DNA from: Candidatus Nanopusillus sp.
GTDB lineage: Archaea > Nanobdellota > Nanobdellia > Nanobdellales > Nanobdellaceae
Assembly (NCBI GenBank): GCA_046533775.1
Contig: JAWDOO010000001.1
Span: forward strand, 1-32,000
DNA: 32,000 nucleotides
Direction of reading: 5' to 3'
The notes below the pieces were generated by a model. The model did no database searches and had not been told where the DNA came from. It saw only the letters and a list, made by a program, of their open reading frames with translations. Position numbers and translations under genes: made by a program. Numbering within the stretch: the first letter of the stretch is position 1; each line of letters begins with the position of its first letter. Positions 9,495 through 27,068 of the stretch are shown here, piece by piece.

Positions 9495-10271
9495 ATGATT
9501 ATAAAACTTATATATTTCGAGATATTTAAAATTTGTATGAATATATTTTCGAACATATTTAGAAAAAAGAATAATGATAAAAATGTCCAAAATATTAATG
9601 TTTTACCACAACAAAATATTGTAAATCAAAATTATATATCGGAAATAAAAAATATTGTTAATTCTATTGAAGGTTTAGCAAAAAGTGTAAGGGAATTAGA
9701 GAATAAAGTATCTGAAATTTCAAGTAATGTTTCAAATATTAGTTCTACAATAGAAAATCATCAAAATGAAATAAATAGTATTAAAAATAGCTTGGAAAAA
9801 GTTTTTTCTATATATGAAATGCTAATAAAAAGTTATAATCCATTTGTAGAAGAAGAAAAAAAAGAAGAATCAAATGTTCAAGTTATAAATGAAAATAAGA
9901 TAGATAATAATGAAAATAATATATTACCTTTAAGTAAACTTGATGACAATCCAACTGTTTCTTCAATTATAATTGGTTGGTTAGCATACTTAGTTAAAAA
10001 ATCAAATATAGATGAAGTAGACGATGCATTGGATTATTATGAATCAATTAATTGGATAACAGAAAAAGTAAAAATAAAATTAAAGGAATATTTAAATGGA
10101 TTAAAAAACGTTGAGGGAGAAAATAAAAAGTTATTACCAACAGATCATATAGTAAGTTTATATATAATATCGAAATTAGCACAGATAAGTAGTTCAGATA
10201 ATATTGAAAGATTAAAAGATCTATATAATGAGCTAATTCAAAAAGGATATATATCACCAATAAAAAGATGA
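9495..10271 (+). CDS. Archaellum accessory protein, ArlD/E (FlaD/E) family
   Basis: N-terminal coiled coil, then the FlaD/E C-terminal domain pattern (LSKLDDNPTVSSIIIGWLAYLVKK...ALDYYESINWITEKVKIKLKEYL). First gene of a translationally coupled arl block. The second Met (MNIFSNIF, about 9537) may be the true start. Confidence 0.65.
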   Translation: MIIKLIYFEIFKICMNIFSNIFRKKNNDKNVQNINVLPQQNIVNQNYISEIKNIVNSIEGLAKSVRELENKVSEISSNVSNISSTIENHQNEINSIKNSLEKVFSIYEMLIKSYNPFVEEEKKEESNVQVINENKIDNNENNILPLSKLDDNPTVSSIIIGWLAYLVKKSNIDEVDDALDYYESINWITEKVKIKLKEYLNGLKNVEGENKKLLPTDHIVSLYIISKLAQISSSDNIERLKDLYNELIQKGYISPIKR

Positions 10272-10654
10272 TAAGGGAACTAATATATTTAATTATTCTA
10301 TTTATAGCTGGATATTTAGTATTAAGTACATTTTTTAACTTTTATTCTTCGGCAGGAAAAATAATTGCAAGTGAAATATCAAATATAACAAGTCCAACAT
10401 ATGAAAGTCAAGTAAATTATATAATAAATTATTATAATTCTGGTAACTATTCAATATTATATTTAGTACAGAATATAAATCCATCTAATTGTATAAATAA
10501 TATAGAGGTAGGAAATACAATGGTTAACTTTACATATAATGTATTAAATCAATATACAATAGAATTGAATATAAGTTATCCAGTAAATGCTGGAGATAAT
10601 TTAACAATAACATTTTGTAACGGCCAATCATCTTTATATTATATTAGCCCATAA
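10268..10654 (+). CDS. Archaellum stator-type protein, ArlF or ArlG (FlaF/FlaG)-like
   Basis: N-terminal TM helix plus a small sequon-rich beta domain. It lies between arlD/E and arlH, with a 4-nt overlap upstream and a TAATG overlap downstream. Confidence 0.5.
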   Translation: MIRELIYLIILFIAGYLVLSTFFNFYSSAGKIIASEISNITSPTYESQVNYIINYYNSGNYSILYLVQNINPSNCINNIEVGNTMVNFTYNVLNQYTIELNISYPVNAGDNLTITFCNGQSSLYYISP

Positions 10655-11358
10655 TGGTAGAATATATTAATGTTTATTTAGATAGGGATGAATTTTCAAA
10701 TAGAATTGGAGGAGGAATTCCAAAAGGTAGTATATTTATAATTGAAGGAGAAAATGGAACTGGAAAGAGTATAGTATGTCAGAGAATATTATACGGAGCT
10801 TTATCAAATAATCATACCGCAACATATATTTCTACAGAATTATCTGTTGTAGATTTTATTAAACAAATGGAATCGTTGGGTTATGATATAAAAGATTATT
10901 TATTAAATCAAAAATTATTATTTATACCAACCCTAAATTTATTTAATAAAATAAAGGAGAGAGAAAATTTAATATTTGAATTAACAAAAGAAAAGTCTAA
11001 AAAATTATTAGAAAATGAGTTAATAATATTGGATTCTTTATCATATCCATTAATAAATGGATTAAATAAAATGGATTCAATAAGATTAATTGAATTTTTA
11101 AGTAAAATAAAAAATCTAGATAAAACAATTATCTTAACATATAATCCTTCAGAAATAAATAGATTTTTTGTAAGAAATATAAGGAGAATTGCAGATATAT
11201 ACTTTAATTTAAGGTTTTCTTCCATTGGAGAATCATCATTATTAAAAATAATAGAAGTAAAGAGATTTAGATATCCAATGGGAATATATAATACATTAAT
11301 ACCATTTAGAGTAGAACCTAATATAGGGCTAATAATTGAGATATCTTCATATATATAA
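10654..11358 (+). CDS. arlH: Archaellum KaiC/RecA-like ATP-binding protein ArlH (FlaH)
   Basis: GGGIPKGSIFIIEGENGTGKS Walker A, then YISTE...FIKQMESLGYDI. Located immediately upstream of arlI. Confidence 0.85.
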   Translation: MVEYINVYLDRDEFSNRIGGGIPKGSIFIIEGENGTGKSIVCQRILYGALSNNHTATYISTELSVVDFIKQMESLGYDIKDYLLNQKLLFIPTLNLFNKIKERENLIFELTKEKSKKLLENELIILDSLSYPLINGLNKMDSIRLIEFLSKIKNLDKTIILTYNPSEINRFFVRNIRRIADIYFNLRFSSIGESSLLKIIEVKRFRYPMGIYNTLIPFRVEPNIGLIIEISSYI

Positions 11359-13031
11359 TGCCTGAACAAATACAAGAAACAAAAGAAGAATATATAATAA
11401 AGAGAGAAAATACAAAAGTAATAACTAATGATATAACTGCATCATTTGATGAGGCATTGAATAAATATGAGCATCTTAGAAATTATATTAATGAAATATC
11501 ATTAAAAATTGGGCCTCCCGAATGGATGACTTCTCTAGATTTTTCTTTAAGATCTAGAACTGAATTTAATATATTATATCCTGTTGGAGATCCAATATTT
11601 ATTCATATATATAAATTACCATCCGGAGAAGCATTATATAATGTAATAGAACCAGAATTAAATGATAATGAAAAGAAAAAATTAGATCAAATACAAACAA
11701 AAATTGTTAAATATGCAATAGAGGATATTAACTTTAATAATATTGAAGAAGTAAGAAGATACATAATTGATTTATTTAATAAGGTTATTGATTTTAAAAG
11801 AAAATTATTTTCTGATAAAGTATATATAAAAAATCAAGAAGAATATGATAAATTATTATATTTCTTAATTAGGGAAAGATTTGGTTATGGTTTTTTAGAA
11901 CCATTTTTAAGAGATCCTTATTTGGAAGATATACATATATTAGGTTTAGGTCCAATCTATGTTGTACATAAAATATTTGGAATGCTTAAAACAAATAGAG
12001 AATTTAAAAATGAAGAAGATTTAAATAAATATATAATTAAATATTCACAACTAGTTGATAGACCGGCATCAGAAACAAGACCAATAGTTGATGCAATATT
12101 ACAAGATGGATCAAGAGTTAACTTTATATATGGTAAAGATATATCTTTACATGGATCTTCATTTACAATAAGAAAATTCACTGCAAAACCATTAAGTATA
12201 ACACAATTAATTTCTTTTGGTACAATTTCTCCAGAAGAAGCTGCTTATTTATGGTTAGCAATTGAAAATGGGATGAATATAATAATATCTGGAGAAACAG
12301 CATCAGGAAAAACTACATTATTAAATGCATTAACTACGTTTATTAAACCTGATGCAAAGGTTTATTCTGTAGAAGATACACCTGAATTAAATATACCACA
12401 TAATATATGGCAAAGATTGGTTACAAGGGAAGTTGGAAAAAGTTCAGATGTATCTATGTATGATCTATTAAGAGCAGCATTAAGATCTAGACCAAATTAT
12501 ATATTAATAGGTGAGATAAGGGGTAAAGAAGGATATGTAGCATTCCAGGCAATGCAAACAGGTCATCCTGTCATGACAACATTCCACTCAGGTAATATAA
12601 CCCAATTAATAGAAAGATTGACTGGAGATCCAATAAATATACCAATTACATTTATAGATAACTTAAATATTGCTGTATTTACAACATCTGTAACAGTAAA
12701 AGGGAGATATGAAAGAAGAGTAACAAATATATATGAAATAGAAAAATATATTGCAGAATTAAAGAAAGTTGCTGTTAGAAATGTATTTACATGGAATTCT
12801 GTACAAGATAAACATATGTTCATTGGAAAATATAATAGTTATATATTAGAAAAGAAAATTGCACCATTAATGAAAATTGATGATAAAAGAAAAATATATC
12901 AAATATTAGATTATAGAGCTAGAATATTAAAAAAGATGGTTGAAAATGAGATATTCGATTTCTTTGAAGTATGGGAAATATTAAAAAATTTCTATATAAA
13001 TGGACCTTCATCATTACCATTTTCAGTATAA
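11358..13031 (+). CDS. arlI: Archaellum assembly/motor ATPase ArlI (FlaI), type II/IV secretion ATPase superfamily
   Basis: Walker A GETASGKTT, aspartate box/Walker B region (YSVEDTPEL, YILIGEIRGKE) and His box (TFHSG). 557 aa. Confidence 0.92.
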   Translation: MPEQIQETKEEYIIKRENTKVITNDITASFDEALNKYEHLRNYINEISLKIGPPEWMTSLDFSLRSRTEFNILYPVGDPIFIHIYKLPSGEALYNVIEPELNDNEKKKLDQIQTKIVKYAIEDINFNNIEEVRRYIIDLFNKVIDFKRKLFSDKVYIKNQEEYDKLLYFLIRERFGYGFLEPFLRDPYLEDIHILGLGPIYVVHKIFGMLKTNREFKNEEDLNKYIIKYSQLVDRPASETRPIVDAILQDGSRVNFIYGKDISLHGSSFTIRKFTAKPLSITQLISFGTISPEEAAYLWLAIENGMNIIISGETASGKTTLLNALTTFIKPDAKVYSVEDTPELNIPHNIWQRLVTREVGKSSDVSMYDLLRAALRSRPNYILIGEIRGKEGYVAFQAMQTGHPVMTTFHSGNITQLIERLTGDPINIPITFIDNLNIAVFTTSVTVKGRYERRVTNIYEIEKYIAELKKVAVRNVFTWNSVQDKHMFIGKYNSYILEKKIAPLMKIDDKRKIYQILDYRARILKKMVENEIFDFFEVWEILKNFYINGPSSLPFSV

Positions 13032-14415: not shown

Positions 14416-14751
14416 ATGAAGATTGACAAAATGATTAACAATTTAATCATATTAATTAGTTTGTATAGATTACATGCAAAAAAATTATTTAATAAAATCC
14501 AAGATAATGAGGCAAAAATATTATTATTAATGTCATTTAAAGATAATGATATATTAAATATTTTGGAAGATATTGTTGATAGAAAGAAAATATTTGATGA
14601 ATATATAGGAAATAATCAAATAAAGAAAGCTTACTTAGTATATAAAGATATTGAATATAAATATAAGTTAGCTGAATCTTTATTATATAATAGAATCGAA
14701 GATTTAATTAAAATAAGAGCTTTAGATATTGCAAAATCTAAAAAGAATTAA
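14416..14751 (+). CDS. Hypothetical helical protein
   Basis: 111-aa ORF with ordinary codon usage for this genome. I recognise no motif. Confidence 0.45.
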   Translation: MKIDKMINNLIILISLYRLHAKKLFNKIQDNEAKILLLMSFKDNDILNILEDIVDRKKIFDEYIGNNQIKKAYLVYKDIEYKYKLAESLLYNRIEDLIKIRALDIAKSKKN

Positions 14752-14969
14752 TCTTTTCTCTTTACCTTATATAAAGGTATTTTTCCTTTATATGATAAAT
14801 ATATATAGATATCTATAATAATTAATATTAATATAATTAATATTGACATGTAATATAGATTTCTATACGGTAAATTAATTAATGTATTTGTTATTATTGC
14901 AATAACTATTAATGTAATTATTAAAGAAATATAAAGTTCATATTTTGTTGCGTACAATTCTTCTTCCAT
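14748..14969 (-). CDS. Small membrane protein (two predicted TM helices)
   Basis: 73-aa ORF with two hydrophobic stretches (ISLIITLIVIAIITNTLI; MSILIILILIIIDIYIYL) and a basic C-terminus. Confidence 0.4.
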   Translation of the reverse strand: MEEELYATKYELYISLIITLIVIAIITNTLINLPYRNLYYMSILIILILIIIDIYIYLSYKGKIPLYKVKRKD

Positions 14970-14995
14970 TAATAATTGTTTTATAAAATATTAAA

Positions 14996-15052
14996 AAATC
15001 TGAGCTCAAGACCCTCATCATTTATCAGCCGATGAGTTTTTCTTCATTATAA
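14996..15052 (-). ncRNA. C/D box sRNA (2'-O-methylation guide), variant terminal boxes
   Basis: The reverse strand reads ATGAAGA(C)-AAAACTCATCGG(12)-CTGA(D')-TAA-ATGATGA(C')-GGGTCTTGAGCT(12)-CAGA(D)-TTTTTT. It shares the 15-mer GCTGATAAATGATGA with the 7010..7065 locus. Confidence 0.7.
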
Positions 15053-15210
15053 AGATATTATAAAATTTTATTTTAAAAATGATCATTTATTTTCCAAATC
15101 TATATAATTATATTTAATTTAGATAATATTTTCTTAATTTATTCATAAAAAATAAATATAATAATGTATAAGTAATCCTTTTTATTGTTAAATATTAGAT
15201 AGGTTGATAT

Positions 15211-15292
15211 TTAATTATAAATATTTATAAAAATATTTGTTTGTTACAATTAAATAACTATAGTATAATAAATTTTTCCTATATAGTATAAT
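15211..15292 (+). promoter_or_regulatory. Conserved upstream module, copy 1 (TATA-like element plus TTACAATTAAATAACTATA block)
   Basis: Aligns with 16115..16209 and 16917..17017 on a shared core ATTTGTTTRTTACAATTAAATAACTATA. Relative to copies 2 and 3 it lacks about 8 nt of the TTTATAAA element. Confidence 0.55.
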
Positions 15293-16021
15293 ATGATGAA
15301 TAGTCAACAATCGGATAAAAGTTCTGAAAAAATATCTGATTTAATAAAAGAAGAAAATAATAAAATGCAACTAGAAGATACTACAAAAGAACTAAAGAAA
15401 TTATTAAACGAAATAAAGCTAGAATATTATATAATGGATCTAGAGAACTTATTAAAGGAAGCGGCTAAAAAATTAGAAGAAAGAATTAATCTACCTGAAA
15501 TAAAAGAATCCTCTACAATAAAAAATTTGGAAGAAAGCATTTATACAGAAATAAAGTTATATTGTGATAAACATAATAATGAACCTTTGCAGTGTGGATA
15601 TAATATTAAAATACTCTTTGATAAAGCATACCTTATTAATGAGAATTATATTAAAAAAGAAACAATTGAGTGTCATTCAGACTCACAAAATCCATCTTAT
15701 AAAATTGAATGCACTAAATATAATGATAATTTATCATTTGAGTTATATGATTCCAGTTCTTTCATAGAAGGTATAAAAAAATCATTTCTAAGTATGTATA
15801 AAATATTATATCCAGGAGTACCTATCGATATGAATGAGCAACATACTAATAAAGATACTCATATAGATATGAAAGCAGGTGTTTTTATGGATTTCGACAA
15901 GCCAAGAAAAGAGAATTCTGAAATAAAAATATATAACCTTAGTAGTAAAGAAAAAGAACTTGAATATAACAATGGTAGAGTTAATGTTTGGATGAAAGGA
16001 AGTTCTTTTGACACCTTCTAA
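15293..16021 (+). CDS. Uncharacterised protein, paralog 1 of a three-member tandem family
   Basis: 242 aa with a hydrophilic coiled-coil-like N-terminal half and a Cys-containing C-terminal domain. Shares LYCxKxxNEPxxCGY, IxCxSxS..P..IxCTxY, YPG and EN(S/P)EI with the next two ORFs. Confidence 0.75.
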   Translation: MMNSQQSDKSSEKISDLIKEENNKMQLEDTTKELKKLLNEIKLEYYIMDLENLLKEAAKKLEERINLPEIKESSTIKNLEESIYTEIKLYCDKHNNEPLQCGYNIKILFDKAYLINENYIKKETIECHSDSQNPSYKIECTKYNDNLSFELYDSSSFIEGIKKSFLSMYKILYPGVPIDMNEQHTNKDTHIDMKAGVFMDFDKPRKENSEIKIYNLSSKEKELEYNNGRVNVWMKGSSFDTF

Positions 16022-16037
16022 GTTATAACCATTTTAT

Positions 16038-16064
16038 CTTTTATTAGATTTTTTATTTCAAAAA
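16038..16064 (+). terminator. Conserved downstream module, copy D1 (TTATTAGATTTTTTATTTCAAAAA; oligo-T terminator candidate)
   Basis: A T-run directly after the stop codon. Near-identical copies lie at 15065..15083, 16862..16887 and 17689..17715. Confidence 0.45.
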
Positions 16065-16114
16065 TGATTATATAAGTCAATTGGATTATCAAATAATTAT
16101 TATAGATTGATCTT

Positions 16115-16209
16115 ATGATTATAGATATTTTTTAAAAATATTTATTTATTACAATTACATAATTATTGTATAAGATAAATTTATAAATTTTTCTATATAA
16201 TATAATAGC
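16115..16209 (+). promoter_or_regulatory. Conserved upstream module, copy 2
   Basis: ATTATAGATATTTT...TTATTACAATTACATAA...ATAAATTTATAAATTTTTCTATATAATATAAT. The TTTATAAA TATA-like box ends about 24 nt before the ATG, which suggests a leaderless or short-leader transcript. Confidence 0.55.
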
Positions 16210-16851
16210 ATGGAAAGTCAACAATCATATGAAAGTTCTAAAAAGATATCTGAGTTAATAGAAAACCTTAATAAATGGTTAGGAGAAGAAGATAATAAAA
16301 GATTAGAAGAAGAAATTAATAAAAGATTAGAATATCCTATGAACGAACTAGGAGACTCATTATATAAAATGGCTAAAGATGCACAAAAAAAGGTTAATCT
16401 GTCTGAAATGGAAGGAATTGATGCAGTAATAGATTTATATTGCTATAAAAGTGGTAATGAACCTATGGAGTGCGGATACTATATTAGTGCAGACGTTTAT
16501 AATAGAAATAAAGGAATTAGGTGTCTTTCAAACTCACCATATTTACCTAATAGAGTTAAATGCACTGATTATAGTAAGATAGATTCTGAATTATATGATC
16601 CATCTCAAAGTGCTTCGTTTGTACAAAACATAATAAATTCAATTCTAAATGCATATAATATATATAAGCCAGAAACGTTTATGAATATGGGTAAAAAACA
16701 TATACATTTTAGATCCGTTGCTTCTGTGAATCCAGAAGGGTCAATAAAAGAGAATCCAGAAATAGTTAAAGATGGCAATAAAATTAAATATAACAATGGT
16801 ATATATGTTATTGAGATAACTGCAGAACCTTATAACCCTTTTAAGCCATAA
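16210..16851 (+). CDS. Uncharacterised protein, paralog 2 of the tandem family
   Basis: 213 aa. The first ~18 codons are close to paralog 1 at nucleotide level (M-ESQQSYESSKKISELI vs MMNSQQSDKSSEKISDLI), and the Cys motifs are shared. Confidence 0.75.
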   Translation: MESQQSYESSKKISELIENLNKWLGEEDNKRLEEEINKRLEYPMNELGDSLYKMAKDAQKKVNLSEMEGIDAVIDLYCYKSGNEPMECGYYISADVYNRNKGIRCLSNSPYLPNRVKCTDYSKIDSELYDPSQSASFVQNIINSILNAYNIYKPETFMNMGKKHIHFRSVASVNPEGSIKENPEIVKDGNKIKYNNGIYVIEITAEPYNPFKP

Positions 16852-16861
16852 CTATTTTATC

Positions 16862-16887
16862 ATTTATAGATTTTTTTATTTCAAAAA
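16862..16887 (+). terminator. Conserved downstream module, copy D2
   Basis: ATTTATAGATTTTTTTATTTCAAAAA directly after paralog 2. Confidence 0.45.
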
Positions 16888-16916
16888 TTATTTAGTCGTT
16901 AATTTTTATCTTTAAC

Positions 16917-17017
16917 TTTATAATTATAGATATTTTATTTTAAAAACATTTGTTTATTACAATTAAATAACTATAATATAGAATAAATTTATAAATTTTT
17001 CTTATATAATAAATATT
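16917..17017 (+). promoter_or_regulatory. Conserved upstream module, copy 3
   Basis: TAATTATAGATATTTTATTTTAAAAACATTTGTTTATTACAATTAAATAACTATAATATAGAATAAATTTATAAATTTTTCTTATATAATAAATATT. Very similar to copy 2 by eye. Confidence 0.55.
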
Positions 17018-17614
17018 ATGGTCGGCAAAATCAGAAAAATATTTGGTCTAGATAGAATAATAGGAGAATTAGGTAACAAAAATCAAGAATATATTTCACT
17101 TATGGAGGAACTAAGGAACTATTCAAAAGAAATAGTCGAAATGGCACAAAAAACATATAATATACCTGAAATAAATAAAGTCAATGTATTAATAGGTTGG
17201 GTTACCAGTACATCTGATTATGATGCTGAGCAGTACAAACACCAACAATCTATTAAAATAGACGTTCATAGTATAGATGGAATATATATATGCGAATCAG
17301 ACATGTTACATTCACCTAATGAAATTGTATGCACTCGTTATAGTGATAAATCATCATTTGTGTTACCCAATTCCGATTATTTCATACAAAATATAAAAGA
17401 TTGGTCCCAAAAGGCAGCTAAATTATATCCAGGAAAAATTAAGCATCCTGATCAATATATATCTCTATCTGCATTTACTTCTATAGATTCAAAAAATCCA
17501 ATAATATCGAATCCAGAAGTAAATATAGTTAAAGTAGATAAAGATCTTTATAGAGTTGACTATAAAGATAAAGAGAATGGATTTCATAGCTGGATGACTT
17601 ATGGCCTTTTATGA
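17018..17614 (+). CDS. Uncharacterised protein, paralog 3 of the tandem family (divergent N-terminus, lacks the first Cys pair)
   Basis: 198 aa. IYICESDMLHSPNEIVCTRYSDKSSFVLPNSDYFIQNIKD...LYPG...SNPEV aligns with paralogs 1 and 2. Its 3' end is altered by a 53-bp insertion (see findings). Confidence 0.7.
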   Translation: MVGKIRKIFGLDRIIGELGNKNQEYISLMEELRNYSKEIVEMAQKTYNIPEINKVNVLIGWVTSTSDYDAEQYKHQQSIKIDVHSIDGIYICESDMLHSPNEIVCTRYSDKSSFVLPNSDYFIQNIKDWSQKAAKLYPGKIKHPDQYISLSAFTSIDSKNPIISNPEVNIVKVDKDLYRVDYKDKENGFHSWMTYGLL

Positions 17615-17688
17615 CGAGTTTGAGTTTTTGGCAGATCTAATACTGAGATGACTGTGCTCTTTTATGGATTTAAGTTATAATTTTTTAG

Positions 17689-17715
17689 CCTTTATTAGTT
17701 TTTTTATTTCAAAAA
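17689..17715 (+). terminator. Conserved downstream module, copy D3
   Basis: CCTTTATTAGTTTTTTTATTTCAAAAA, close to D1. Confidence 0.45.
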
Positions 17716-17824
17716 GTTTATATTATTCTAACAAATTAGAAGAACAAATTTTCTTAATTGATAATTTTACAAGATATTTAATAAAATATTATAAAATTAA
17801 TTGATATGACAAATTACATAATTC

Positions 17825-19159
17825 TTATATTTGATACATTATATTTTCTAAATCTTTTAAATCAAATAGATATAAATTATTCTCTTTAATTCTTTCTTTA
17901 AAACTTTTTGCAAATATTATATAATATTTATTTTTCATATCTAAATTTATATATTCGGATTTTTCCTTTAAATTTTCTAATATTTCCTTTGGATTTATAT
18001 TATCAGAATATTTACATTCTATTAAATATATATCTTTTGTATTTTCATTATATGCAACTAAATCTATTTCTTTATCTTTATACCACCATTTTCCAATTTT
18101 TGTAAATTTAAATAATTTGCTTTTTATTAAAAATTGTTTTGCTATACCTTCAAAAACATATCCCAAATATCTGTTATAATCATTTTTAATATTGTTAATA
18201 TCAAATATACCCTCTTCTATAGAACTTAAATTTGGATAAATATATCTAAACCAAAATCTAATAAAGTTATCATTTATATAATATCTACCTGCTCTAGAAT
18301 TTATTTTTTGATCTATTGGAACAATTCTTTTTATTAATTCTATTTCAATTAAATTTTTTAAATATGGACTCAAATCTGTTCTTTCAACTTTTATATAATC
18401 TTTAATTTCTTTTATAGTATTTTTACCAAATGAAATAGCTTCTAAAATTGATTTATATAAACTTAGATTTTCGAATTCATATCTCATTAAAAAATCTACT
18501 TCATCTAATATAAATGTTTTCTCTTTTAATTCTTTATCTAACCAATCCCAAAAATTTCCATTTATTTTTGATAGATAATAAGGATTTCCATCAGCAAATC
18601 CATATATTTCTATTAATTCTAAAATATTTTTATCTGGAAAGAATTCTTTTAAATCAAAAAAAGATATTGATTTTAATTTATATGTTAATGTTCTCCTACC
18701 ATATAAAGGACTTTTATAACTTAAAACTTTTGATTTTATCATTGATATTGATGATCCGATTATTATTAATTTTATTTTAGAATTTTTTAATATATTATCA
18801 ACAATATTTTGGAAAATATTTAATATATTTTTATCCTCTTTTATTAAATTTTGAAATTCATCAATAATTATAATATCTACTTTATCTTTTAAAAAATCAA
18901 ACAATATTTCCCAATCTTTTTTATATTTATTTAATTCTGGAAAATAATTTAAACATAAATTATAAAATCTATCCAAATTATTCTTTTCTAAAGCTAAATA
19001 ATATATTCTCCTCATTTTTTCTGTAGCTTTTAATACCAATTCTGTCTTACCAATTCTCCTTCTACCATAAATTATTATGAATTCAAATTTGTCACTATTT
19101 AAATATTTATTAAGTGAGGTTAATTCTTCTTTTCTATCTTTGAAATTTTGTATAATCAT
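17825..19159 (-). CDS. Archaeal AAA+ ATPase with C-terminal DUF234 (restriction-endonuclease-like) domain (COG1672 type)
   Basis: Walker A GRRRIGKT and Walker B IIIIDEFQ. The C-terminal region FEGIAKQF...EIDLVAYNENTKDIYLIECKY fits the DUF234 D/E..ExK-like pattern. Confidence 0.85.
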   Translation of the reverse strand: MIIQNFKDRKEELTSLNKYLNSDKFEFIIIYGRRRIGKTELVLKATEKMRRIYYLALEKNNLDRFYNLCLNYFPELNKYKKDWEILFDFLKDKVDIIIIDEFQNLIKEDKNILNIFQNIVDNILKNSKIKLIIIGSSISMIKSKVLSYKSPLYGRRTLTYKLKSISFFDLKEFFPDKNILELIEIYGFADGNPYYLSKINGNFWDWLDKELKEKTFILDEVDFLMRYEFENLSLYKSILEAISFGKNTIKEIKDYIKVERTDLSPYLKNLIEIELIKRIVPIDQKINSRAGRYYINDNFIRFWFRYIYPNLSSIEEGIFDINNIKNDYNRYLGYVFEGIAKQFLIKSKLFKFTKIGKWWYKDKEIDLVAYNENTKDIYLIECKYSDNINPKEILENLKEKSEYINLDMKNKYYIIFAKSFKERIKENNLYLFDLKDLENIMYQI

Positions 19160-19426
19160 AATTATACTAATTGTAATTATACATATATAAAGTTTATTAT
19201 CATTTAACTTACCCTTTATATTAAATTAGAAAAATATAACGCAAAATTATGGCTTAAGATAACATATATCCAAAGGATTAAAAAAGTATATGATTTTAGT
19301 ATTTACTTTCATAAATTTATTAACTTCTTTATTTCATTTCCATATTTATTTAAAATATCTCTTAATTTTTTATTTGCATCTAATAATTAATTTACATTAA
19401 TTTTGGTAATTATCGATAATTAACAA

Positions 19427-20212
19427 TTAGAAATTATATTTCTTATATCTTTTTCTCCTATTTCTACTGTTCTGATTATATATTTGAATACTTTGACCAA
19501 AAATTCTATTTAAATTTTCTGCATATTGCCTACATTGGCTATAAATCTTATTCAAATGTTTTCTGAGTTCTTTTAATAGATGAGGACATCTAAAGAATAA
19601 AGCTAAAATAATTGCCATGTAAATAATAACAAAAACAAAAACAACATCATAAATATAATACAAAATTTTTGATATCCAGCTAAATCCAGTCGCCCAGCCT
19701 ATAATACCATATAAAATTAATATTTGCAAAGCTAAATACACTGTAAGAAATATAAAAAATTCAAGTATGACTCTCCCAACTTTTTTAATGCTAAATCTTT
19801 TATATATATAGTATAAATAAAATGTCATTATAAGTGAGATTGTTATGATAAATATCCATACGTAGGTATGTATATTATTATTGCCAACTATAAATTTACC
19901 ATGCAAATATGAAGTTAAAAAATTATAAAGATAAACAATGTATATAATCACAAATACTAAAATAAATATAAAAAAGTATATAATCAAATAGCATGGTAAA
20001 TTTGCTATTTCTTTAATATCATTAGAAATTGCATCACATCTAGCTTTAAATATTATTTCATAAATTATTTCATAATCCTCTTTAAAATAATTTATAATTC
20101 TTAAGTAATGAATTATATCTTTTATATTATTCTTAAAATCATCAATATAATCATTTAGATGATTATATGTATCCCTCATAATACTTTTAAGGCTTTCAAG
20201 AAAGTCAATCAT
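19427..20212 (-). CDS. Hypothetical polytopic membrane protein (helical N-terminal domain, about 5 TM, basic tail)
   Basis: 261-aa ORF with several long hydrophobic segments and the C-terminus NQNSRNRRKRYKKYNF. A TATA-like ATTTATAAAGG ends 21 nt upstream of the ATG. Confidence 0.55.
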   Translation of the reverse strand: MIDFLESLKSIMRDTYNHLNDYIDDFKNNIKDIIHYLRIINYFKEDYEIIYEIIFKARCDAISNDIKEIANLPCYLIIYFFIFILVFVIIYIVYLYNFLTSYLHGKFIVGNNNIHTYVWIFIITISLIMTFYLYYIYKRFSIKKVGRVILEFFIFLTVYLALQILILYGIIGWATGFSWISKILYYIYDVVFVFVIIYMAIILALFFRCPHLLKELRKHLNKIYSQCRQYAENLNRIFGQSIQIYNQNSRNRRKRYKKYNF

Positions 20213-20303
20213 AACTATACAGTTACAAAATCCTTTATAAATATTTGGAGACTATCAAAAATCTAAAAATTTGTTATTAACTTACTTAGCCATGATTAAT
20301 CTT

Positions 20304-20350
20304 ATCAAAACTTCCATCAAAACCACATCTATTCAAAACCCCTTCAAAAC
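20304..20350. repeat. Array of four TCAAAAC (reverse strand GTTTTGA) heptamers; a fifth copy lies at 20500..20506
   Basis: Heptamers at 20305-11, 20317-23, 20333-39 and 20344-50. The 12-mer ATCAAAACTTCC is repeated exactly at 20304-15 and 20499-510. Confidence 0.6.
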
Positions 20351-20510
20351 AATGACGGATAATTTCTGTTATCCGACATAACTAAGCCAACAATAACTTT
20401 AGATATGATATTTTTAGAACTGCGACAAAATTAAGTTAAAGTATGATACAGGTTCTTTAATTGTTAATAGTCAATATTATTCCTCTGAGACAAACTACAT
20501 CAAAACTTCC

Positions 20511-20885
20511 TCAAATTAGGATTAAATTTAATTCGTCAAATTTTTCTTTAACTTTTAAGAAATCAGAGTCCTTAGTTACTAAAATTAATCTCTTATTTAT
20601 TGCTTGAGCTGATATTAATATATCGAAACTTCCAATTAACTTTCCTCTATCTTTTAATTTCTTATAAATTTGTGAACCTATTATCGCATCCTTCTTAGTA
20701 GGGTTTATGATTTTAAACCCTGATAGAAAATCAAGGATTTCACTTTCCTTAACCTTACCTAACAAGATTTCATATACAGTTAAAGAACTTGCGTAGAAGT
20801 CCTCTGAATTTAAAATAACTTCCTTTACTTTTTTATTACTTCTTAAATAATAAATAATTGCCGAGCTTTCTATTAATAATTTCAT
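20511..20885 (-). CDS. vapC: PIN-domain ribonuclease toxin VapC
   Basis: 124 aa. Acidic residues follow PIN spacing (LLIESSAII, VYEILLG, SFDILISAQAI, LVTKDSDF). A vapB-type gene lies immediately upstream. Confidence 0.85.
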   Translation of the reverse strand: MKLLIESSAIIYYLRSNKKVKEVILNSEDFYASSLTVYEILLGKVKESEILDFLSGFKIINPTKKDAIIGSQIYKKLKDRGKLIGSFDILISAQAINKRLILVTKDSDFLKVKEKFDELNLILI

Positions 20886-21075
20886 CGCTCTTTTTTCTCA
20901 TTTCTTTAATTTCCCTCTCCAGTTCTTCATCCTTTTCTTCACTTAATATACCAAAATATTTCTCCAACTTTTTCCTCCTCAAACTTAATGATTTCTCTAT
21001 TAACTCCTCAATTATATCACTAAAGCTTTTATCACCTTTTATCTCATTCAACTTTCTGTATACATCATCCATCAT
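20836..21075 (-). CDS. vapB: VapB-type antitoxin (archaeal 'putative antitoxin' family, SFSD motif)
   Basis: DDVYRKLNEIKGDKSFSDIIEELIEK...FGILSEEKDEELEREIKEMRKK matches the small archaeal antitoxins paired with PIN toxins. It overlaps vapC by an unusual 50 nt. Confidence 0.78.
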   Translation of the reverse strand: MMDDVYRKLNEIKGDKSFSDIIEELIEKSLSLRRKKLEKYFGILSEEKDEELEREIKEMRKKSDEIINRKLGNYLLFKK

Positions 21076-21487
21076 TAATTGCTTTCATAATATATTATAA
21101 TAGGTAGATAAATTTTTAGATAAGTATATTTTCACATATACTTTATACATATGATATTCCTCTTAATTATCATTGGAAGCCTATTAAATGAAATAACAAC
21201 ATAATTACAATATTTAATATAAGAAAAATAAATAAAAAGTGCTTATAACAATAAAAAATTTAAATAATTAAAAAATACAAAACAATTATCTAATATATAA
21301 GTAGCTTTTTAATAAATTATATATTATTTGTCATATTAGGTGGTTTCTCTAATAAACAATTCATTATCCAACTTAACATGGCGTATTTTGCATTAAGTGT
21401 TTTAGCTATTTCCATATAATCGCTAAGTATCATATTGAATGTTTTAGTTATTTCTACATAATAATCTTTAGATAAAAATTTAAGTTT

Positions 21488-22156
21488 TTATATCATATCT
21501 TTAATATTTAATTTAGGAGATTCTTTGTTCTTATTTAATATACTTTCATAAGCATATATAATATTATTTGCAAAACATGAGCCAAAAGAATATGGTGCTA
21601 AAGGCGAACCCAATGAATAGGATGATGATGGATTCTCCTTCTTTATATATTTTTCGCATATTTCTACATTTTCTTCCATAATTTTATACACTTCAGGATA
21701 TTTATATAATTCATTTTTATAGAAGTATACCAAAAATTCAAATGCAGAAGTTCTCCATTCATCGCCAACTATAGAATGCCCAATTTCATGAGTTACTATT
21801 GAATCTGTAACAGCATTTGCTATAATCTTTTCTATATCATTATCATTTTTATATACTGGCCATAATATTCCATTATGATATATAGAAACTAGATTACCAA
21901 TAAAAATTTTATTTGGATCATTTATATCTCTATTTATAACTTCTCTTAATCTATTCTTTATAATATGGACTTCATTTTTCATTCGATCATATTCTCCAAC
22001 ATGAATTCTAGGGTTTGTTCCATATTTTTGTTGATATTCTTCATATGATTCTAGAGTTACTAATGATAATTTTTCTTCAACCTGTATATTATTCTTTTTA
22101 AGATATTCTATAGTCCCATCAAAACTATTTTTTATAATACTAGCCAATTCATCCAT
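21488..22156 (-). CDS. Hypothetical HExxH zinc-metallopeptidase-like protein
   Basis: 222-aa ORF with IVTHEIGHSIVGDEW. No signal peptide or TM helix. I do not recognise the family. Confidence 0.55.
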   Translation of the reverse strand: MDELASIIKNSFDGTIEYLKKNNIQVEEKLSLVTLESYEEYQQKYGTNPRIHVGEYDRMKNEVHIIKNRLREVINRDINDPNKIFIGNLVSIYHNGILWPVYKNDNDIEKIIANAVTDSIVTHEIGHSIVGDEWRTSAFEFLVYFYKNELYKYPEVYKIMEENVEICEKYIKKENPSSSYSLGSPLAPYSFGSCFANNIIYAYESILNKNKESPKLNIKDMI

Positions 22157-22422
22157 TATATAGATATTAATAAAAAATTTACAAATATTTATTATTTAAA
22201 ATTTAGTACATTCAAAAATATATTTTGTTATTTTTTAAGCTGGGATAATAATTCATTATTAATGTTAGAATTAATACTTATAATAATGTTTAGGAGCATT
22301 ACACAAAACAAGTTTTTATTATCTCCATAATCTCTTTCTATAAATTTTTATTTATCTTAGGTAACTAATATATAAGTAATTTTTATAATGAGTATATCAA
22401 CATATAAAAAATCGTCTAAATT

Positions 22423-23544
22423 CTATATTATTAATGCAATTCCTGTAATTAAATAGATAATTCCAAGAGTTATATAAGCAACAGCTTTTATAAGGAACTC
22501 ATTTCGATAAAAATTTGATAAATGAACTTCCAAAATTCCTGTAGACATATCTGGAACTGTAACTTTTACTGGTTTCATATTTATCATTTCCCCAGTATCT
22601 GCAAATCCTCCAACAATTGTATAATCTTCATTAATTGGAATATATTGTTCTACTAAATACAAATGATTTTGTCTATAATAGGTCCATGAATTTATTTTTA
22701 CTCCTAATTTATTATGAAGTATAGAATTTTCTAATTCCACATCGGGTATATACCTTTTTAAATTTCTTATTATACTATTCCCTATTATAAATTTATAATT
22801 TTTTATATAGGAAAGATTTGCTTGAGTATTATTATTTGCAGCATATTTTATATATTGTAAAATTTCATCACTAATTCTTTTAGCATCATTAAAATTTGAT
22901 AATTTTATTTTATGATTTTGCAAATTATTTGGTATTATTTCAATTATGTTTGTTCTTACTTCAACAGTTGGTGCCTTTTCTAAATCTACTGCTGAAAAAC
23001 CAGTTCCATCCGTAAATAATGTTGGTATTCCTACATCAAAACCATCTACAAAATATGATCTCCGATTTGAATTATTATTGCTTCCTCTAGATTGTACGTA
23101 AAAAGTGGAAATAGAATAGTATATACAATCCTGCCCACTAATTGGGGTTTTCAAAGGTTGAAATCCGTAAGGTATAAATCTTCCTTTAACCTTATCTAAA
23201 CCATAAGTTGCAATATGAATTTTAGAAACTGGAGTATTATTTAAAATATTATGTATTATATATCTCTTAAAACCTCTAATAATTAAAAAAAGCGATATTG
23301 ATATTAAAATAATGAATAATGGTAACTTAAATGGAATATTTATGAACTGAAATATAAAAATATAAAAAATCATAAAAAACGCAAAATAAAAACCATCATA
23401 ATTCTTTGCTTTAATATCTTTTGCATATGGGGGTATATAATTATGATATATTGTCCTAGTACTTGACAAATTTTTAACATGAGGTGTTTGTTGTAAATAA
23501 CCTAGATTTCTAAGATTTAAAAAAATAATACGGTTTTGTTGCAT
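22423..23544 (-). CDS. GIDE-domain membrane protein (prokaryotic homolog of the MUL1/GIDE region)
   Basis: N-terminal TM pair, then NNTPVSKIHIATYGLDKVKGRF...PLKTPISGQDCIYYS...FTDGTGFSAVDLEKA, then a C-terminal TM helix. This is the GIDE pattern (T.I..l..G.v.i.G...P..sP.sg..CvyY). Starts 2 nt after lemA. Confidence 0.68.
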   Translation of the reverse strand: MQQNRIIFLNLRNLGYLQQTPHVKNLSSTRTIYHNYIPPYAKDIKAKNYDGFYFAFFMIFYIFIFQFINIPFKLPLFIILISISLFLIIRGFKRYIIHNILNNTPVSKIHIATYGLDKVKGRFIPYGFQPLKTPISGQDCIYYSISTFYVQSRGSNNNSNRRSYFVDGFDVGIPTLFTDGTGFSAVDLEKAPTVEVRTNIIEIIPNNLQNHKIKLSNFNDAKRISDEILQYIKYAANNNTQANLSYIKNYKFIIGNSIIRNLKRYIPDVELENSILHNKLGVKINSWTYYRQNHLYLVEQYIPINEDYTIVGGFADTGEMINMKPVKVTVPDMSTGILEVHLSNFYRNEFLIKAVAYITLGIIYLITGIALII

Positions 23545-23546
23545 AT

Positions 23547-24113
23547 TTAAAATTGTAACCTTGTAGATACATCTTGTTTTTCTTCCTCTGGTACTTTATA
23601 TAGAGGCATTGGTCTTATACCAGCTATACTAGCGACAATATTATATGGTACTTGTTGTATTCTTGTATTTAATAAAGTTACTGCTTCATTATAAAATTCT
23701 CTTGCATCTGCCAATTGTGATTCTAACTCCATAATTGCTTGTTGTAATTGTATTACATTTTGATTTGATCTTAATTGTGGATAATTTTCCATTACTGCAA
23801 ATAGATATCTAAAAGCTCCTGTAATTTGATTTGATAAATTTATTTTTGATTGTATATCATTTGATGGTAAATTCATATATTGAGTTCTCATTTGTGTTAA
23901 TCTTTCAAGAACTGTTCTTTCATATACTAAATAACTACTTACTGTTTCTACTAATTTTGCCAATGCATCATGTCTCTTTTGCAATAATACATCTATATCA
24001 TACCATGCCTTTTCTGCATTTTTCTTTAATGCTATTAGAGAATTATACATTGCTATAAAAAATCCTACTAATAATATTAAAATTACTACTAGAATAATAA
24101 GCCAAACCTCCAT
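23547..24113 (-). CDS. lemA: LemA family membrane protein
   Basis: N-terminal TM helix plus WYDIDVLLQKRHDALAKLVETV...ERTVLERLTQMR...YPQLRSNQN...LQ..I.E.E..LA.AR..YN, the typical LemA pattern. Confidence 0.9.
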   Translation of the reverse strand: MEVWLIILVVILILLVGFFIAMYNSLIALKKNAEKAWYDIDVLLQKRHDALAKLVETVSSYLVYERTVLERLTQMRTQYMNLPSNDIQSKINLSNQITGAFRYLFAVMENYPQLRSNQNVIQLQQAIMELESQLADAREFYNEAVTLLNTRIQQVPYNIVASIAGIRPMPLYKVPEEEKQDVSTRLQF

Positions 24114-24298
24114 AAAAGGAATAAAAATTTTGTTATTTTTAAAATTTTTTAATGTTATAATATAAATATTATAAAGAATAATAAAATAGTTATTTTAAAT
24201 AAAAATTTTTTAATTCTCTAATAGATTTGAAAAAATCTTTTGTTTCAATGAAATCGATGATCTATCTTTATATGAAAATTTTAAAAATATAGAAAACT

Positions 24299-26989: not shown

Positions 26990-27068
26990 AAAGGATAATT
27001 ATTATAAAAATACTTAAATTTTTTATAGTATTTAAAAATTCATAATTACATAAAAATTCCTTTTTATT

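What the first reader, a model, noticed from the sequence alone, without database searches (positions are those of the whole stretch)
15293..17614. Tandem array of three divergent paralogs of an unrecognised Cys-containing protein family
Three consecutive same-strand ORFs (242, 213 and 198 aa) are clearly homologous but strongly diverged.
- Shared core: P1 IECHSDSQNPSYKIECTKYNDNLSFELYDSSSFIEGIKK...LYPG...ENSEI; P2 IRCLSNSPYLPNRVKCTDYSKIDSELYDPSQSASFVQNIIN...ENPEI; P3 IYICESDMLHSPNEIVCTRYSDKSSFVLPNSDYFIQNIKD...LYPG...SNPEV.
- P1 and P2 also share LYC[DY]K..NEP[LM][QE]CGY and an MxSQQS..SS.KIS.LI N-terminus. P3 lacks both.
- None has a signal peptide or TM helix. Each has a helical, charged N-terminal half, and none matches a domain I know.

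A locally amplified, fast-diverging, apparently cytoplasmic family in an otherwise minimal genome is the best candidate here for an undescribed function. Possibilities include an immunity-type or host/symbiont-interaction module, or a stress regulon. That functional reading is speculation.
Basis: partly seen in the sequence, partly recalled or inferred. Interest (0 to 1): 0.75.

Follow-up and report, generated by a model that had tools for sequence, protein, structure and literature searches.

The report
Hypervariable gene-cassette array in a nanoarchaeon
A tiny symbiotic archaeon (Nanopusillus) has one chromosomal spot holding 0 to at least 8 tandem copies of a previously undescribed small protein whose promoter and core are conserved while its surface changes unusually fast, which points to a molecular arms race.

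Summary
The three ORFs (15293-16021, 16210-16851, 17018-17614, + strand) are true paralogs of a family with no Pfam, NCBIfam, PADLOC, PHROG or PDB relative.

What the tools add:
- **Host and distribution:** the window is a Candidatus Nanopusillus MAG. Every named homologue is a Nanopusillus or Nanobsidianus hypothetical protein.
- **Location:** wherever flanks are informative, the family sits between a conserved 73-aa gene and a DUF234 ATPase gene. Copy number runs from 0 (N. acidilobi 7A) to at least 8.
- **Cassette structure:** each gene has its own conserved promoter block and 3' block. The non-coding flanks are better conserved than the coding body.
- **Selection:** flanking genes are 92-97% identical with omega 0.04-0.15. 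Family members reach 50% identity at the same synonymous divergence, with gene-wide omega of 0.4-3. A codon mixture model favours a positively selected class (LRT 70-110; controls 0).
- **Structure:** the AlphaFold model (pLDDT 91) is a long helix plus beta-sheet with an invariant Cys pair. It has no convincing match in PDB or BFVD.

Best reading: a polymorphic recognition or immunity-like cassette array in a flexible, defence-gene-rich island. The function remains inferred.

The parts
14748..14969 (-). Conserved 73-aa membrane-protein gene that forms the left boundary of the variable locus
   Evidence: It is 77-94% identical in the Nanopusillus loci, and the array follows it directly wherever flanks are informative.
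15204..15292 (+). Conserved promoter block of cassette 1: a distal A/T-rich element, the TTACAATTAAATAAC motif and a proximal TATA-like element
   Evidence: Repeat families D1 and D3. Alignment of upstream regions across genomes. The motif occurs 3 times in the window against 0.01 expected.
15293..16021 (+). Paralog P1 (242 aa; the conserved start is probably at 15296)
   Evidence: It is 100% identical to NCBI RXQ68_00095, a hypothetical protein of Candidatus Nanopusillus sp..
16014..16069 (+). Conserved T-rich 3' block (probable terminator), copy 1
   Evidence: Repeat family D2, with three copies, each lying over or shortly after the stop codon of a paralog.
16130..16209 (+). Promoter block of cassette 2. 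TTTATAAA at 16180-16187 lies -30 to -23 from the ATG, so the transcript is probably leaderless
   Evidence: The spacing was read directly from the sequence. The leaderless reading is an inference from typical archaeal TATA-to-start-site spacing.
16210..16851 (+). Paralog P2 (213 aa)
   Evidence: Identical to RXQ68_00100. AlphaFold model with pLDDT 91 and pTM 0.83.
16837..16892 (+). Conserved 3' block, copy 2
   Evidence: Repeat family D2.
16917..17017 (+). Promoter block of cassette 3
   Evidence: Repeat families D1 and D3; motif hit at 16949-16974.
17018..17614 (+). Paralog P3 (198 aa). This subfamily has a 5-codon N-terminal deletion and lacks the first Cys pair
   Evidence: Identical to RXQ68_00105.
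17665..17720 (+). Conserved 3' block, copy 3, marking the end of the array
   Evidence: Repeat family D2.
17825..19159 (-). Convergent DUF234 / archaeal-ATPase gene that forms the usual right boundary of the array
   Evidence: Pfam PF01637 plus PF03008. It is 93-95% identical in L005, L006, L011, L023 and L030. It is a remnant only in L014, and tblastn found no match in L004.

Best explanation
The locus is a copy-number-variable array of self-contained gene cassettes that is specific to the Nanopusillus/Nanobsidianus lineage. Each cassette has a conserved promoter block, a hypervariable coding body of about 200 codons and a conserved T-rich 3' block.

The encoded proteins are small and soluble. 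They have a conserved polar N-terminal tag (M-D/N-x-Q-Q-S-x-K-S-S-E-K-I), a long helix, and a beta-sheet domain held by an invariant Cys pair. A second Cys pair is either present or absent as a pair.

The hydrophobic core, the Cys pair and the expression signals are under purifying selection. A large share of the surface is under diversifying selection. The conserved flanks probably allow unequal or inter-strain recombination, which would expand, contract and reshuffle the array.

**Shown:** the family and its restriction to one lineage, the single locus, the copy-number variation, the cassette anatomy, the contrast in evolutionary rate with flanking genes, the conserved core, and the absence of known relatives.

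**Inferred:** the proteins form a panel of specificity variants that each bind a rapidly changing partner in a conflict. I favour cytoplasmic, immunity-like neutralising or recognition binders. My reasons are the lack of an export signal, the position in a flexible island that carries restriction-modification, PIN and ATPase genes, and the absence of the array at this locus in a cultured strain that still grows on its host. In this reading the conserved N-terminal tag is a common handle for a conserved partner or for localisation.
For: **Family and distribution**
- An exhaustive profile search found only 70 cluster representatives among 1.84 billion proteins, the complete ones about 190-280 aa and the rest fragments.
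- Every named hit is a Nanopusillus hypothetical protein.
- A second, divergent subfamily is homologous: hhalign probability 98.3%, E 1.3e-14.

**One locus, variable copy number**
- Wherever flanking sequence is informative, the family lies after TyrRS, orf111 and orf73, usually before the DUF234 ATPase.
- Counts include divergent subfamily members:
  - 0 in N. acidilobi 7A and in distant Nanopusillaceae
  - 1 in L004, L011 and L023
  - 2 to 4 in L006, L003, L031 and L030
  - 3 in the window and in Nst1
  - 7 in AB-777_F03
  - at least 8 in L001

**Cassette anatomy**
- The promoter and 3' blocks are repeated with each gene.
- The upstream 100 nt has a median identity of 74%, against 61% for the coding body and 55% for AT-rich background.
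- The promoter motif is unique to the three genes in the window.

**Evolutionary rates**
- Flanking genes are 92-97% identical in protein, with omega 0.04-0.15.
- Family pairs have Nei-Gojobori omega of 0.66-1.8 and GY94 maximum-likelihood omega of 0.41-3.14.
- Synonymous difference at same-residue codons is 0.09-0.25 in many pairs. That matches the flanks (0.135-0.164) and is far below saturation (about 0.68).
- P1 versus its L001 relative shows 94 identical codons, 6 synonymous differences and 102 non-synonymous differences, and these are dispersed along the gene.
- The joint M2a versus M1a test gives LRT 109.8. On the close pairs only it gives 69.5. On flanking-gene controls it gives 0.

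**Constraint**
- There are two invariant Cys in 59 sequences, conserved hydrophobic positions and a low-entropy N-terminal tag.
- The first Cys pair is present as a pair in 31 sequences, absent as a pair in 20, and single in 8.
- The open reading frames are far longer than chance allows.
- The AlphaFold model reaches pLDDT 91.

**Context**
- Neighbours or their counterparts in relatives include a DUF234 ATPase, a PIN protein, a type IIG restriction-modification enzyme and a GT2 glycosyltransferase.
Against: - No partner, toxin or effector gene is linked to the array, and no PADLOC model matches. The conflict role therefore rests on evolutionary signature and neighbourhood alone.
- The selection tests are my own pairwise implementations, not full phylogenetic site models. 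Multi-nucleotide changes, gene conversion between paralogs and alignment error can all inflate a positive-selection class.
- Gene-wide omega near 1 is also what weak constraint would give.
- Some copies are disrupted.
- There is no expression evidence.
- Cytoplasmic location is inferred only from hydropathy.
- The conserved Cys pairs and the conserved N-terminal tag would fit an exported protein equally well.
- Only 10 kb either side of the locus was examined in other genomes, so copies elsewhere in those genomes are not excluded.
Confidence: 0.45

Rival explanations
1. Host-interface proteins. The products are exported by a non-classical route, with the conserved N-terminal tag as the signal. 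They act at the nanoarchaeon-host contact, or inside the host, as adhesion-specificity or effector proteins. They diversify to track host surface or defence variation.
For: The diversifying-selection signature is present. The conserved polar N-terminal tag is the lowest-entropy segment, and it is duplicated in some members. Conserved Cys pairs are typical of extracellular proteins. A glycosyltransferase gene lies beside the array in some strains. Jarett et al. 2018 (PMC6142677) found raised non-synonymous SNP density in hypothetical proteins of this clade and read it as host adaptation.
Against: There is no signal peptide, TM helix or class III signal by hydropathy. The cultured, host-competent N. 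acidilobi 7A has no copy at this locus. No secretion apparatus is linked to the array apart from the unrelated archaellum operon upstream.
Confidence: 0.25
2. A nearly neutral, dispensable lineage-specific ORFan family. The genes are weakly constrained and evolve by birth and death. The apparent positive selection is an artefact of gene conversion, multi-nucleotide mutation and alignment error.
For: Gene-wide omega is about 0.9-1. Copy number goes down to zero. Frameshifted, split or truncated copies occur in L001 and L013.
Against: Intact reading frames of about 200 codons persist in more than 70 clusters, although a stop is expected every 10 codons or so. The Cys pair is invariant and the hydrophobic core is conserved. 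The promoters are better conserved than the coding body. The alignment supports a pLDDT-91 model. Controls of similar divergence give LRT 0. Roughly a third to a half of sites have omega near 0, so an average near 1 requires other sites above 1.
Confidence: 0.15
3. Small-ligand or lipid carriers with a helix-on-sheet architecture like LolA, LolB or LprG. They would serve to acquire lipids or other molecules from the host, which nanoarchaea cannot make themselves.
For: The top Foldseek PDB hits for the high-confidence model are LolA, LolB and LprG (E 6e-4 to 2e-2, probability up to 0.77). From established knowledge, Nanoarchaeota depend on host lipids.
Against: TM-scores are only 0.13-0.23 with rmsd of 16-19 A, so this is not a real fold match. 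Carriers of a conserved ligand are not expected to show surface-wide diversifying selection or to be dispensable.
Confidence: 0.07
4. Cargo of a virus, an integrated element or a diversity-generating retroelement (DGR).
For: The array lies in a flexible island. From memory, DGRs are known in DPANN archaea. One BFVD hit has probability 0.99 (A0A0N9PBA3).
Against: IMG/VR contigs and GenBank phage records contain no homologue. No scanned ORF in the window is a reverse transcriptase or an integrase. There is no near-identical template/variable repeat pair. Differences are spread over the whole gene. The flanks are chromosomal and syntenic. The BFVD hit has a TM-score of only 0.29.
Confidence: 0.03

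Closest known systems
Orphan immunity-gene arrays of polymorphic toxin systems (for example acquired interbacterial defence clusters and CDI/Rhs orphan modules), and the archaeal polymorphic toxin/immunity loci that have been predicted computationally
   Same: Both are tandem arrays of small, mostly cytoplasmic, rapidly diversifying paralogs. Copy number varies between strains, and the arrays sit in flexible or defence islands.
   Different: No toxin gene or toxin remnant is linked to this array. No known immunity family matches. Each gene here has its own highly conserved promoter and a conserved N-terminal tag. The resemblance is recalled from general knowledge and was not tested by homology.
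Variable surface-protein multigene families of host-associated bacteria (Mycoplasma Vlp/Vsp/Vsa, Borrelia paralogous families)
   Same: Both have a conserved 5' region (promoter plus N-terminus) followed by a divergent body. Both occur as tandem copies, vary in copy number and show a diversifying-selection signature, in organisms with a minimal genome that live attached to a host.
   Different: Those families have lipoprotein signal peptides and internal tandem repeats, and they use promoter homopolymer tracts or site-specific inversion for phase variation. None of these features is seen here.
LolA / LolB / LprG half-barrel fold and the MHC class I-like platform fold
   Same: All have an antiparallel beta-sheet with helices lying on it. 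They are the top-ranked Foldseek hits.
   Different: TM-scores are at most 0.32 and mostly about 0.2, with rmsd of 6-22 A and sequence identity up to about 14%. This is not a match at fold level.
Hypothetical proteins with high non-synonymous SNP density in Yellowstone clade 1 Nanoarchaeota (Jarett et al. 2018, PMC6142677)
   Same: Same organisms: L013 here is a contig of SAG AB-777_F03, a genome of that study. The general observation is the same: hypothetical proteins diversify faster than housekeeping genes.
   Different: In the passages I read, that study reports the result by functional category. It highlights cytochrome bd oxidase and FlaJ/TadC, not this family, its cassette array or its locus.

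Membership tests
Any Pfam, NCBIfam, PADLOC or PHROG family | A profile HMM match at or near the curated threshold | tested here: not met
   Best Pfam E-values for the three paralogs are 0.099-0.36, far below the gathering scores. Across 59 members, no family is hit by more than one member.
Proteins with a solved structure (sequence level) | A profile match to a PDB chain | tested here: not met
   The best E-value is 0.14, on helical segments only.
LolA/LolB/LprG lipid-carrier fold | Global structural superposition (TM-score about 0.5 or more) onto a half-barrel with a helical plug | tested here: not met
MHC class I-like platform | TM-score about 0.5 or more onto the alpha1-alpha2 platform | tested here: not met
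   The best TM-score is 0.32 over 140 columns, against 1hla.
Diversity-generating retroelement target protein | A nearby reverse transcriptase, a template/variable repeat pair, and variation confined to a C-terminal region | tested here: not met
   No scanned ORF in the window is a reverse transcriptase. The only repeats are the promoter and 3' blocks and the diverged paralog bodies. Substitutions are spread over all secondary-structure elements.
Polymorphic-toxin immunity protein | The gene lies immediately downstream of a toxin gene or toxin C-terminal remnant | tested here: not met
   The neighbours are orf73, a C/D sRNA candidate, other cassettes and the DUF234 ATPase. No toxin domain is present. 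An orphan immunity array cannot be excluded.
Polymorphic-toxin immunity protein | Specific binding and neutralisation of a cognate toxin | not testable with these tools
   This needs biochemistry or genetics.
Phase-variable surface lipoprotein families (Vlp/Vsp type) | An N-terminal signal peptide or lipobox | tested here: not met
   Mean hydropathy of the first 25 residues is -0.4 to -1.4, and the maximum 19-residue window is 0.55. The N-terminus is polar (MDSQQSYKSSEKI).
Gene family under diversifying selection (operational class) | A site class with omega above 1 that is supported over a nearly neutral model, while controls are not | tested here: met
   M2a versus M1a gives LRT 109.8 over 10 pairs and 69.5 over 7 close pairs. 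Flanking-gene controls give LRT 0. Caveat: this is my own pairwise mixture implementation with no correction for recombination.

The most novel reading that the evidence does not exclude
The cassettes encode a previously unknown kind of polymorphic self/non-self or partner-recognition system in an archaeal ectosymbiont. It would consist of a novel disulfide-stapled fold with a hypervariable surface and a conserved N-terminal tag acting as a non-classical export or docking signal. Different strains would carry different panels. The panel would determine which host, or which competing nanoarchaeon, a cell can associate with or exclude. That could explain the reported clonality of nanoarchaea on a single host cell (Jarett et al. 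2018, PMC6142677).
Probability: 0.2. Interest if true: 0.85.

Novelty: new variant of a known kind. Interest (0 to 1): 0.68.

Why it matters
Nanoarchaeota have some of the smallest and most paralog-poor genomes known (Podar et al. 2013, PMC3655853). A locus that one strain lacks and another fills with at least eight copies, evolving 10-20 times faster at non-synonymous sites than its neighbours, stands out as a site of ongoing conflict or specificity.

It gives a concrete and compact handle for asking what determines host range, strain exclusion or defence in DPANN ectosymbionts:
- the proteins are only about 200 aa;
- the promoter is conserved and could be used for transcript detection;
- the flanks are conserved and could be used for PCR or long-read typing of arrays in hot-spring populations.

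The family may also have a new fold. That claim was tested only against PDB and BFVD.

Tried and rejected
**Family and sequence searches**
- Pfam, NCBIfam, PADLOC and PHROGs on the three paralogs, and Pfam on all 59 aligned members, returned only noise.
- A PDB sequence-profile search returned nothing.

**Fold searches**
- Foldseek of both AlphaFold models against PDB, and of the better model against BFVD, gave no TM-score above 0.32. I reject the LolA/LprG and MHC-like hits as fold assignments.

**Locus retrieval**
- The search for related loci with the broad alignments failed for lack of a conserved peptide stretch.
- I worked around this by fetching loci through the neighbouring TyrRS gene and through a P2-subfamily alignment.

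**Viral origin**
- IMG/VR and GenBank phage searches were empty.

**DGR origin**
- Rejected: no reverse transcriptase, no template/variable repeat pair, and substitutions spread across the whole gene.

**Saturation of synonymous sites in a 22% GC genome as the cause of omega near 1**
- Rejected by a codon-usage simulation. Observed values are 0.09-0.25, saturation is about 0.68, and the flanks give 0.135-0.164.

**Mosaic or blockwise gene conversion as the sole cause**
- Differences are dispersed along the genes. This was not formally excluded.

**A frame-shifted P3 N-terminus as a sign of DNA-level constraint only**
- Rejected. It is an in-frame 15-nt deletion.

**Structured RNA in the array**
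- Rfam and tRNA scans found nothing in the array.

**Literature**
- Searches found no description of the family.
Full report
**1. Observation**

The three same-strand ORFs are present exactly as described: 15293-16021, 16210-16851 and 17018-17614, encoding 242, 213 and 198 aa.

They are homologous. BLASTP gives P1/P2 32% identity (E 2e-25), and P1/P3 and P2/P3 25-27% (E 1e-8). The quoted motifs line up in the alignment.

The window has about 22% G+C. At this composition a stop codon is expected about every tenth codon, and 200 open codons have a chance probability of about 1e-9. The other frames of the region are open for at most 75 codons.

The proteins have no hydrophobic segment. The maximum Kyte-Doolittle 19-residue window is 0.55, and the N-termini are hydrophilic.

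**2. Where the window comes from**

P1, P2 and P3 are identical to hypothetical proteins RXQ68_00095, _00100 and _00105 of a Candidatus Nanopusillus sp. MAG.

The surroundings are typical nanoarchaeal genes:

| Side of the array | Genes |
|---|---|
| Upstream, far | M1 peptidase, MetRS, Trm5/Tyw2, ribosomal proteins L3 and L18A, prefoldin, eIF6 |
| Upstream, near | archaellum block (FlaC/D/E-like, FlaH-like KaiC ATPase, FlaI), Tyr/Trp-type tRNA synthetase, a 111-aa gene, a 73-aa membrane-protein gene |
| Downstream | convergent DUF234 archaeal ATPase, a polytopic membrane protein, a PIN protein, LemA, a HIT-like protein, AspRS |

**3. The family**

No curated library recognises it (section 8). 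An exhaustive HMMER search with a 7-sequence profile against 1.84 billion cluster representatives found only 70 hits with E below 1e-3. The complete ones are about 190-280 aa and the rest are fragments. Every hit that carries a name is a Nanopusillus hypothetical protein.

A second, much more divergent subfamily shares the arrays in some genomes. It has an M-x-D/N-Q-T N-terminus and the same C-x-S ... I-x-C signature. It is homologous by profile-profile comparison, with probability 98.3% and E 1.3e-14. Its named relatives are also only Nanopusillus.

Across 59 aligned members the mean column identity is 22%. Even so, two cysteines are invariant: C105 and C118 in P2 numbering, equal to C127 and C140 in P1.

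It is present as a pair in 31 sequences, absent as a pair in 20, and single in 8. This pattern fits two independent hairpin-stapling disulfides better than a four-Cys metal site. That is an inference, because I could not read model coordinates.

The other conserved positions are hydrophobic core residues, an N-P motif, and the polar N-terminal tag (M-D/N-x-Q-Q-S-x-K-S-S-E-K-I). The tag is the lowest-entropy segment of the protein, and it is duplicated in some members. Synonymous variation occurs within the tag, so the constraint acts on the peptide. P3 lacks part of the tag through an in-frame 15-nt deletion.

**4. Structure**

With the 59-sequence alignment, AlphaFold2 gives a confident model of P2: pLDDT 91 and pTM 0.83. 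The elements are:
- a long helix (residues 7-61);
- a beta-meander (69-79, 87-97, 102-108, 117-120, 125-127);
- a second helix (131-152);
- four more strands (164-208).

**5. One hypervariable locus**

I fetched the neighbourhood of the adjacent TyrRS gene from GTDB species representatives. I fetched P2-like genes from metagenomes, and several contigs by exact protein look-up.

Wherever flanks are informative, the family lies immediately after orf73, downstream of TyrRS and orf111, and usually before the DUF234 ATPase.

Copy number at this site, counting divergent subfamily members:

| Copies | Genomes or contigs |
|---|---|
| 0 | cultured N. acidilobi 7A (only an ATPase remnant, a Zn-ribbon protein and a type IIG restriction-modification enzyme lie there); two more distant Nanopusillaceae |
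| 1 | an N. acidilobi MAG (L004); L011; L023 |
| 2 to 4 | L006 (2), L003 (3), L031 (3), L030 (4) |
| 3 | the window; Nanobsidianus stetteri Nst1 |
| 7 | SAG AB-777_F03 |
| at least 8 | metagenome contig L001 |

A few copies are disrupted. L001 has an early frameshift in one copy and a split in another, and L013 has a fragment. This indicates birth-and-death turnover.

Several assemblies end at or near the locus. That is what strain heterogeneity at a repeat array would produce, but this is an inference.

**6. Cassette anatomy**

Each gene is preceded by a conserved block of about 65-100 nt and followed by a conserved T-rich block of about 56 nt. The unit period is 808-914 nt. The blocks are conserved across paralogs and across genomes.

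Over 561 member pairs, median nucleotide identity is:
- 74% in the upstream 100 nt;
- 70% in the first 45 coding nt;
- 61% in the rest of the coding sequence;
- 55% for unrelated AT-rich intergenic 100-mers.

The promoter is better conserved than the coding body in 81% of pairs.

The core motif TTTRTTYRTTAYAATTANRTARYTAT occurs three times in the 32-kb window, once before each paralog. The number expected by chance is 0.01.

A TTTATAAA element lies -30 to -23 from the ATG. That is the usual distance of an archaeal TATA box from the transcription start, so I infer that the genes are independent, leaderless transcription units. I did not test this.

**7. Evolutionary rates**

*Flanking genes.* Between the window and related genomes, TyrRS, FlaI, orf111, orf73 and the DUF234 ATPase are 82-97% identical in protein (mostly 92-97%). 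They have dS of about 0.15-0.3 and omega of 0.04-0.29.

*Family members.* Members from the same genomes are only 21-77% identical. The best cross-genome pairs have Nei-Gojobori omega of 0.66-1.8 and GY94/F3x4 maximum-likelihood omega of 0.41-3.14.

*Saturation is not the cause.* At codons that encode the same residue, the synonymous difference per synonymous site is 0.09-0.25 for many pairs that share only 47-60% of residues. The flanks give 0.135-0.164, and random codon choice would give about 0.68.

*One pair in detail.* P1 and its closest L001 relative share 94 identical codons. They differ by 6 synonymous and 102 non-synonymous codons, spread along the whole gene.

*All pairs together.* Over ten phylogenetically independent nearest-neighbour pairs there are 528 non-synonymous and 71 synonymous codon differences. 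Every structural element varies. Helix 2 and the N-L-P-E-I linker vary least.

*Mixture model.* A joint pairwise codon mixture model prefers M2a over M1a:
- all ten pairs: LRT 109.8, with 15% of sites at omega of about 15;
- the seven pairs of 74-88% identity only: LRT 69.5.

The same test on flanking genes gives LRT 0. Those controls include pairs at 77-82% identity.

*Caveats.* These are my own pairwise implementations.

*What follows regardless.* About a third to a half of sites are strongly constrained and the gene-wide average omega is about 1. The remaining sites must therefore evolve at or above the neutral rate, while the reading frames, the core and the promoters are maintained.

**8. 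What it is not**

- **Not a known family.** Pfam, NCBIfam, PADLOC and PHROGs gave only noise for the three paralogs. When all 59 aligned members were scanned, no Pfam family was hit by more than one member. A PDB sequence-profile search found nothing.
- **Not viral.** IMG/VR contigs and GenBank phage records contain no homologue.
- **Not a DGR target.** There is no reverse transcriptase and no template/variable repeat pair, and substitutions are not confined to one region.
- **Not a classical secreted or lipoprotein family.** There is no signal peptide by hydropathy.
- **No linked toxin gene.** None was found.
- **No structured RNA in the array.** Rfam and ARAGORN found none.

**9. Interpretation**

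The combination of features is the signature of a polymorphic recognition family engaged in a conflict:
- conserved expression signals;
- a conserved N-terminal handle;
- a conserved core;
- a hypervariable surface;
- copy number from 0 to at least 8;
- occasional pseudogenes;
- a position in a flexible island that in different strains carries restriction-modification, PIN, ATPase and glycosyltransferase genes.

I favour cytoplasmic, immunity-like specific binders (overall confidence 0.45). My reasons are that no export signal is visible, that the neighbourhood is rich in defence genes, and that the cultured strain 7A has no copy at this locus yet lives on its host.

An exported host-interface role is the main rival (0.25). 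Near-neutral decay (0.15) is disfavoured by the maintained reading frames, core and promoters.

Podar et al. 2013 (PMC3655853) report that Nst1 has one of the lowest paralog densities among Archaea and lacks CRISPR-Cas. That makes a tandemly amplified family stand out.

Jarett et al. 2018 (PMC6142677) report raised non-synonymous SNP density in hypothetical proteins, and clonality of nanoarchaea per host cell, in the same clade. Neither paper describes this family in the passages I read. Further literature searches found nothing.

**10. Verdict**

The family is undescribed and confined to one lineage, and it shows one of the clearest diversifying-selection and copy-number signatures one could expect in such a small genome.

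Its function is unknown. The mechanism proposed here is an inference from evolutionary pattern and genomic context. I class it as a new variant of a known kind: an arms-race paralog array, here with a new protein family and in an archaeal ectosymbiont.

Noticed in passing
window 14990-15048, minus strand: A likely C/D box sRNA lies between orf73 and the first cassette. Its layout is AUGAAGA (C), a 12-nt guide, CUGA (D'), UAA, AUGAUGA (C'), a 12-nt guide GGGUCUUGAGCU, CAGA (D), then a U-run. It is 59/59 identical in 7 Nanopusillus loci, although neighbouring genes show 15-20% synonymous divergence. It is still recognisable, with a canonical CUGA D box, in a distant Nanopusillaceae genome. Rfam did not report it at gathering threshold.
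   Followed up: partly
window 17825-27500, compared with L004, L005, L014 and L031: The region to the right of the array is a flexible island whose content differs between close relatives. The window has a DUF234 ATPase, a polytopic membrane protein, PIN, LemA and a HIT-like protein. Nst1 and N. acidilobi 7A instead carry a 1121-1128-aa type IIG (MmeI/Eco57I-like) restriction-modification enzyme. Strain 7A has only a 79-aa remnant of the ATPase, plus a Zn-ribbon protein.
   Followed up: partly
L006 5564-6499 and L003 1-376: In some strains a GT2 glycosyltransferase gene is inserted between orf73 and the cassette array. This suggests the same hot spot also exchanges surface-glycosylation genes.
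   Followed up: no
window 9495-13031: An archaellum gene block (FlaC/D/E-like, a 128-aa ORF, FlaH-like KaiC ATPase, FlaI) lies directly upstream of TyrRS. It is conserved at 93-97% in all Nanopusillus loci. This was already described for Nst1 (PMC3655853).
   Followed up: partly
window 14416-14751 (+) and 14748-14969 (-): The conserved 111-aa and 73-aa genes converge, and their 3' ends overlap by 4 nt. The arrangement is conserved in all close relatives. In distant Nanopusillaceae a phosphomannomutase-like gene sits between them.
   Followed up: no
window 27505-28857 (-), compared with L004 15367-16299, L005 17551-18483 and L014 17588-18520: The window has a full-length 450-aa AspRS with an OB anticodon-binding domain. 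The relatives' loci show, at the island edge, a 310-aa class II synthetase-like protein without that domain, only 27% identical (possibly AsnA-like). The relationship and the synteny were not resolved.
   Followed up: no
BFVD entry A0A0N9PBA3: The only viral-structure hit with high Foldseek probability (0.99, E 4e-4, 16% identity, TM 0.29) is an unnamed 230-aa protein. I could not retrieve its sequence or its source virus.
   Followed up: no
L001_3717 and L032_360 upstream regions: In two cassettes about 45 nt of the promoter block is missing, so the distal A/T-rich element sits at the position of the proximal TATA box. The promoter block therefore looks like a tandem duplication of one TATA-plus-TATAGTATAA module.
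   Followed up: no
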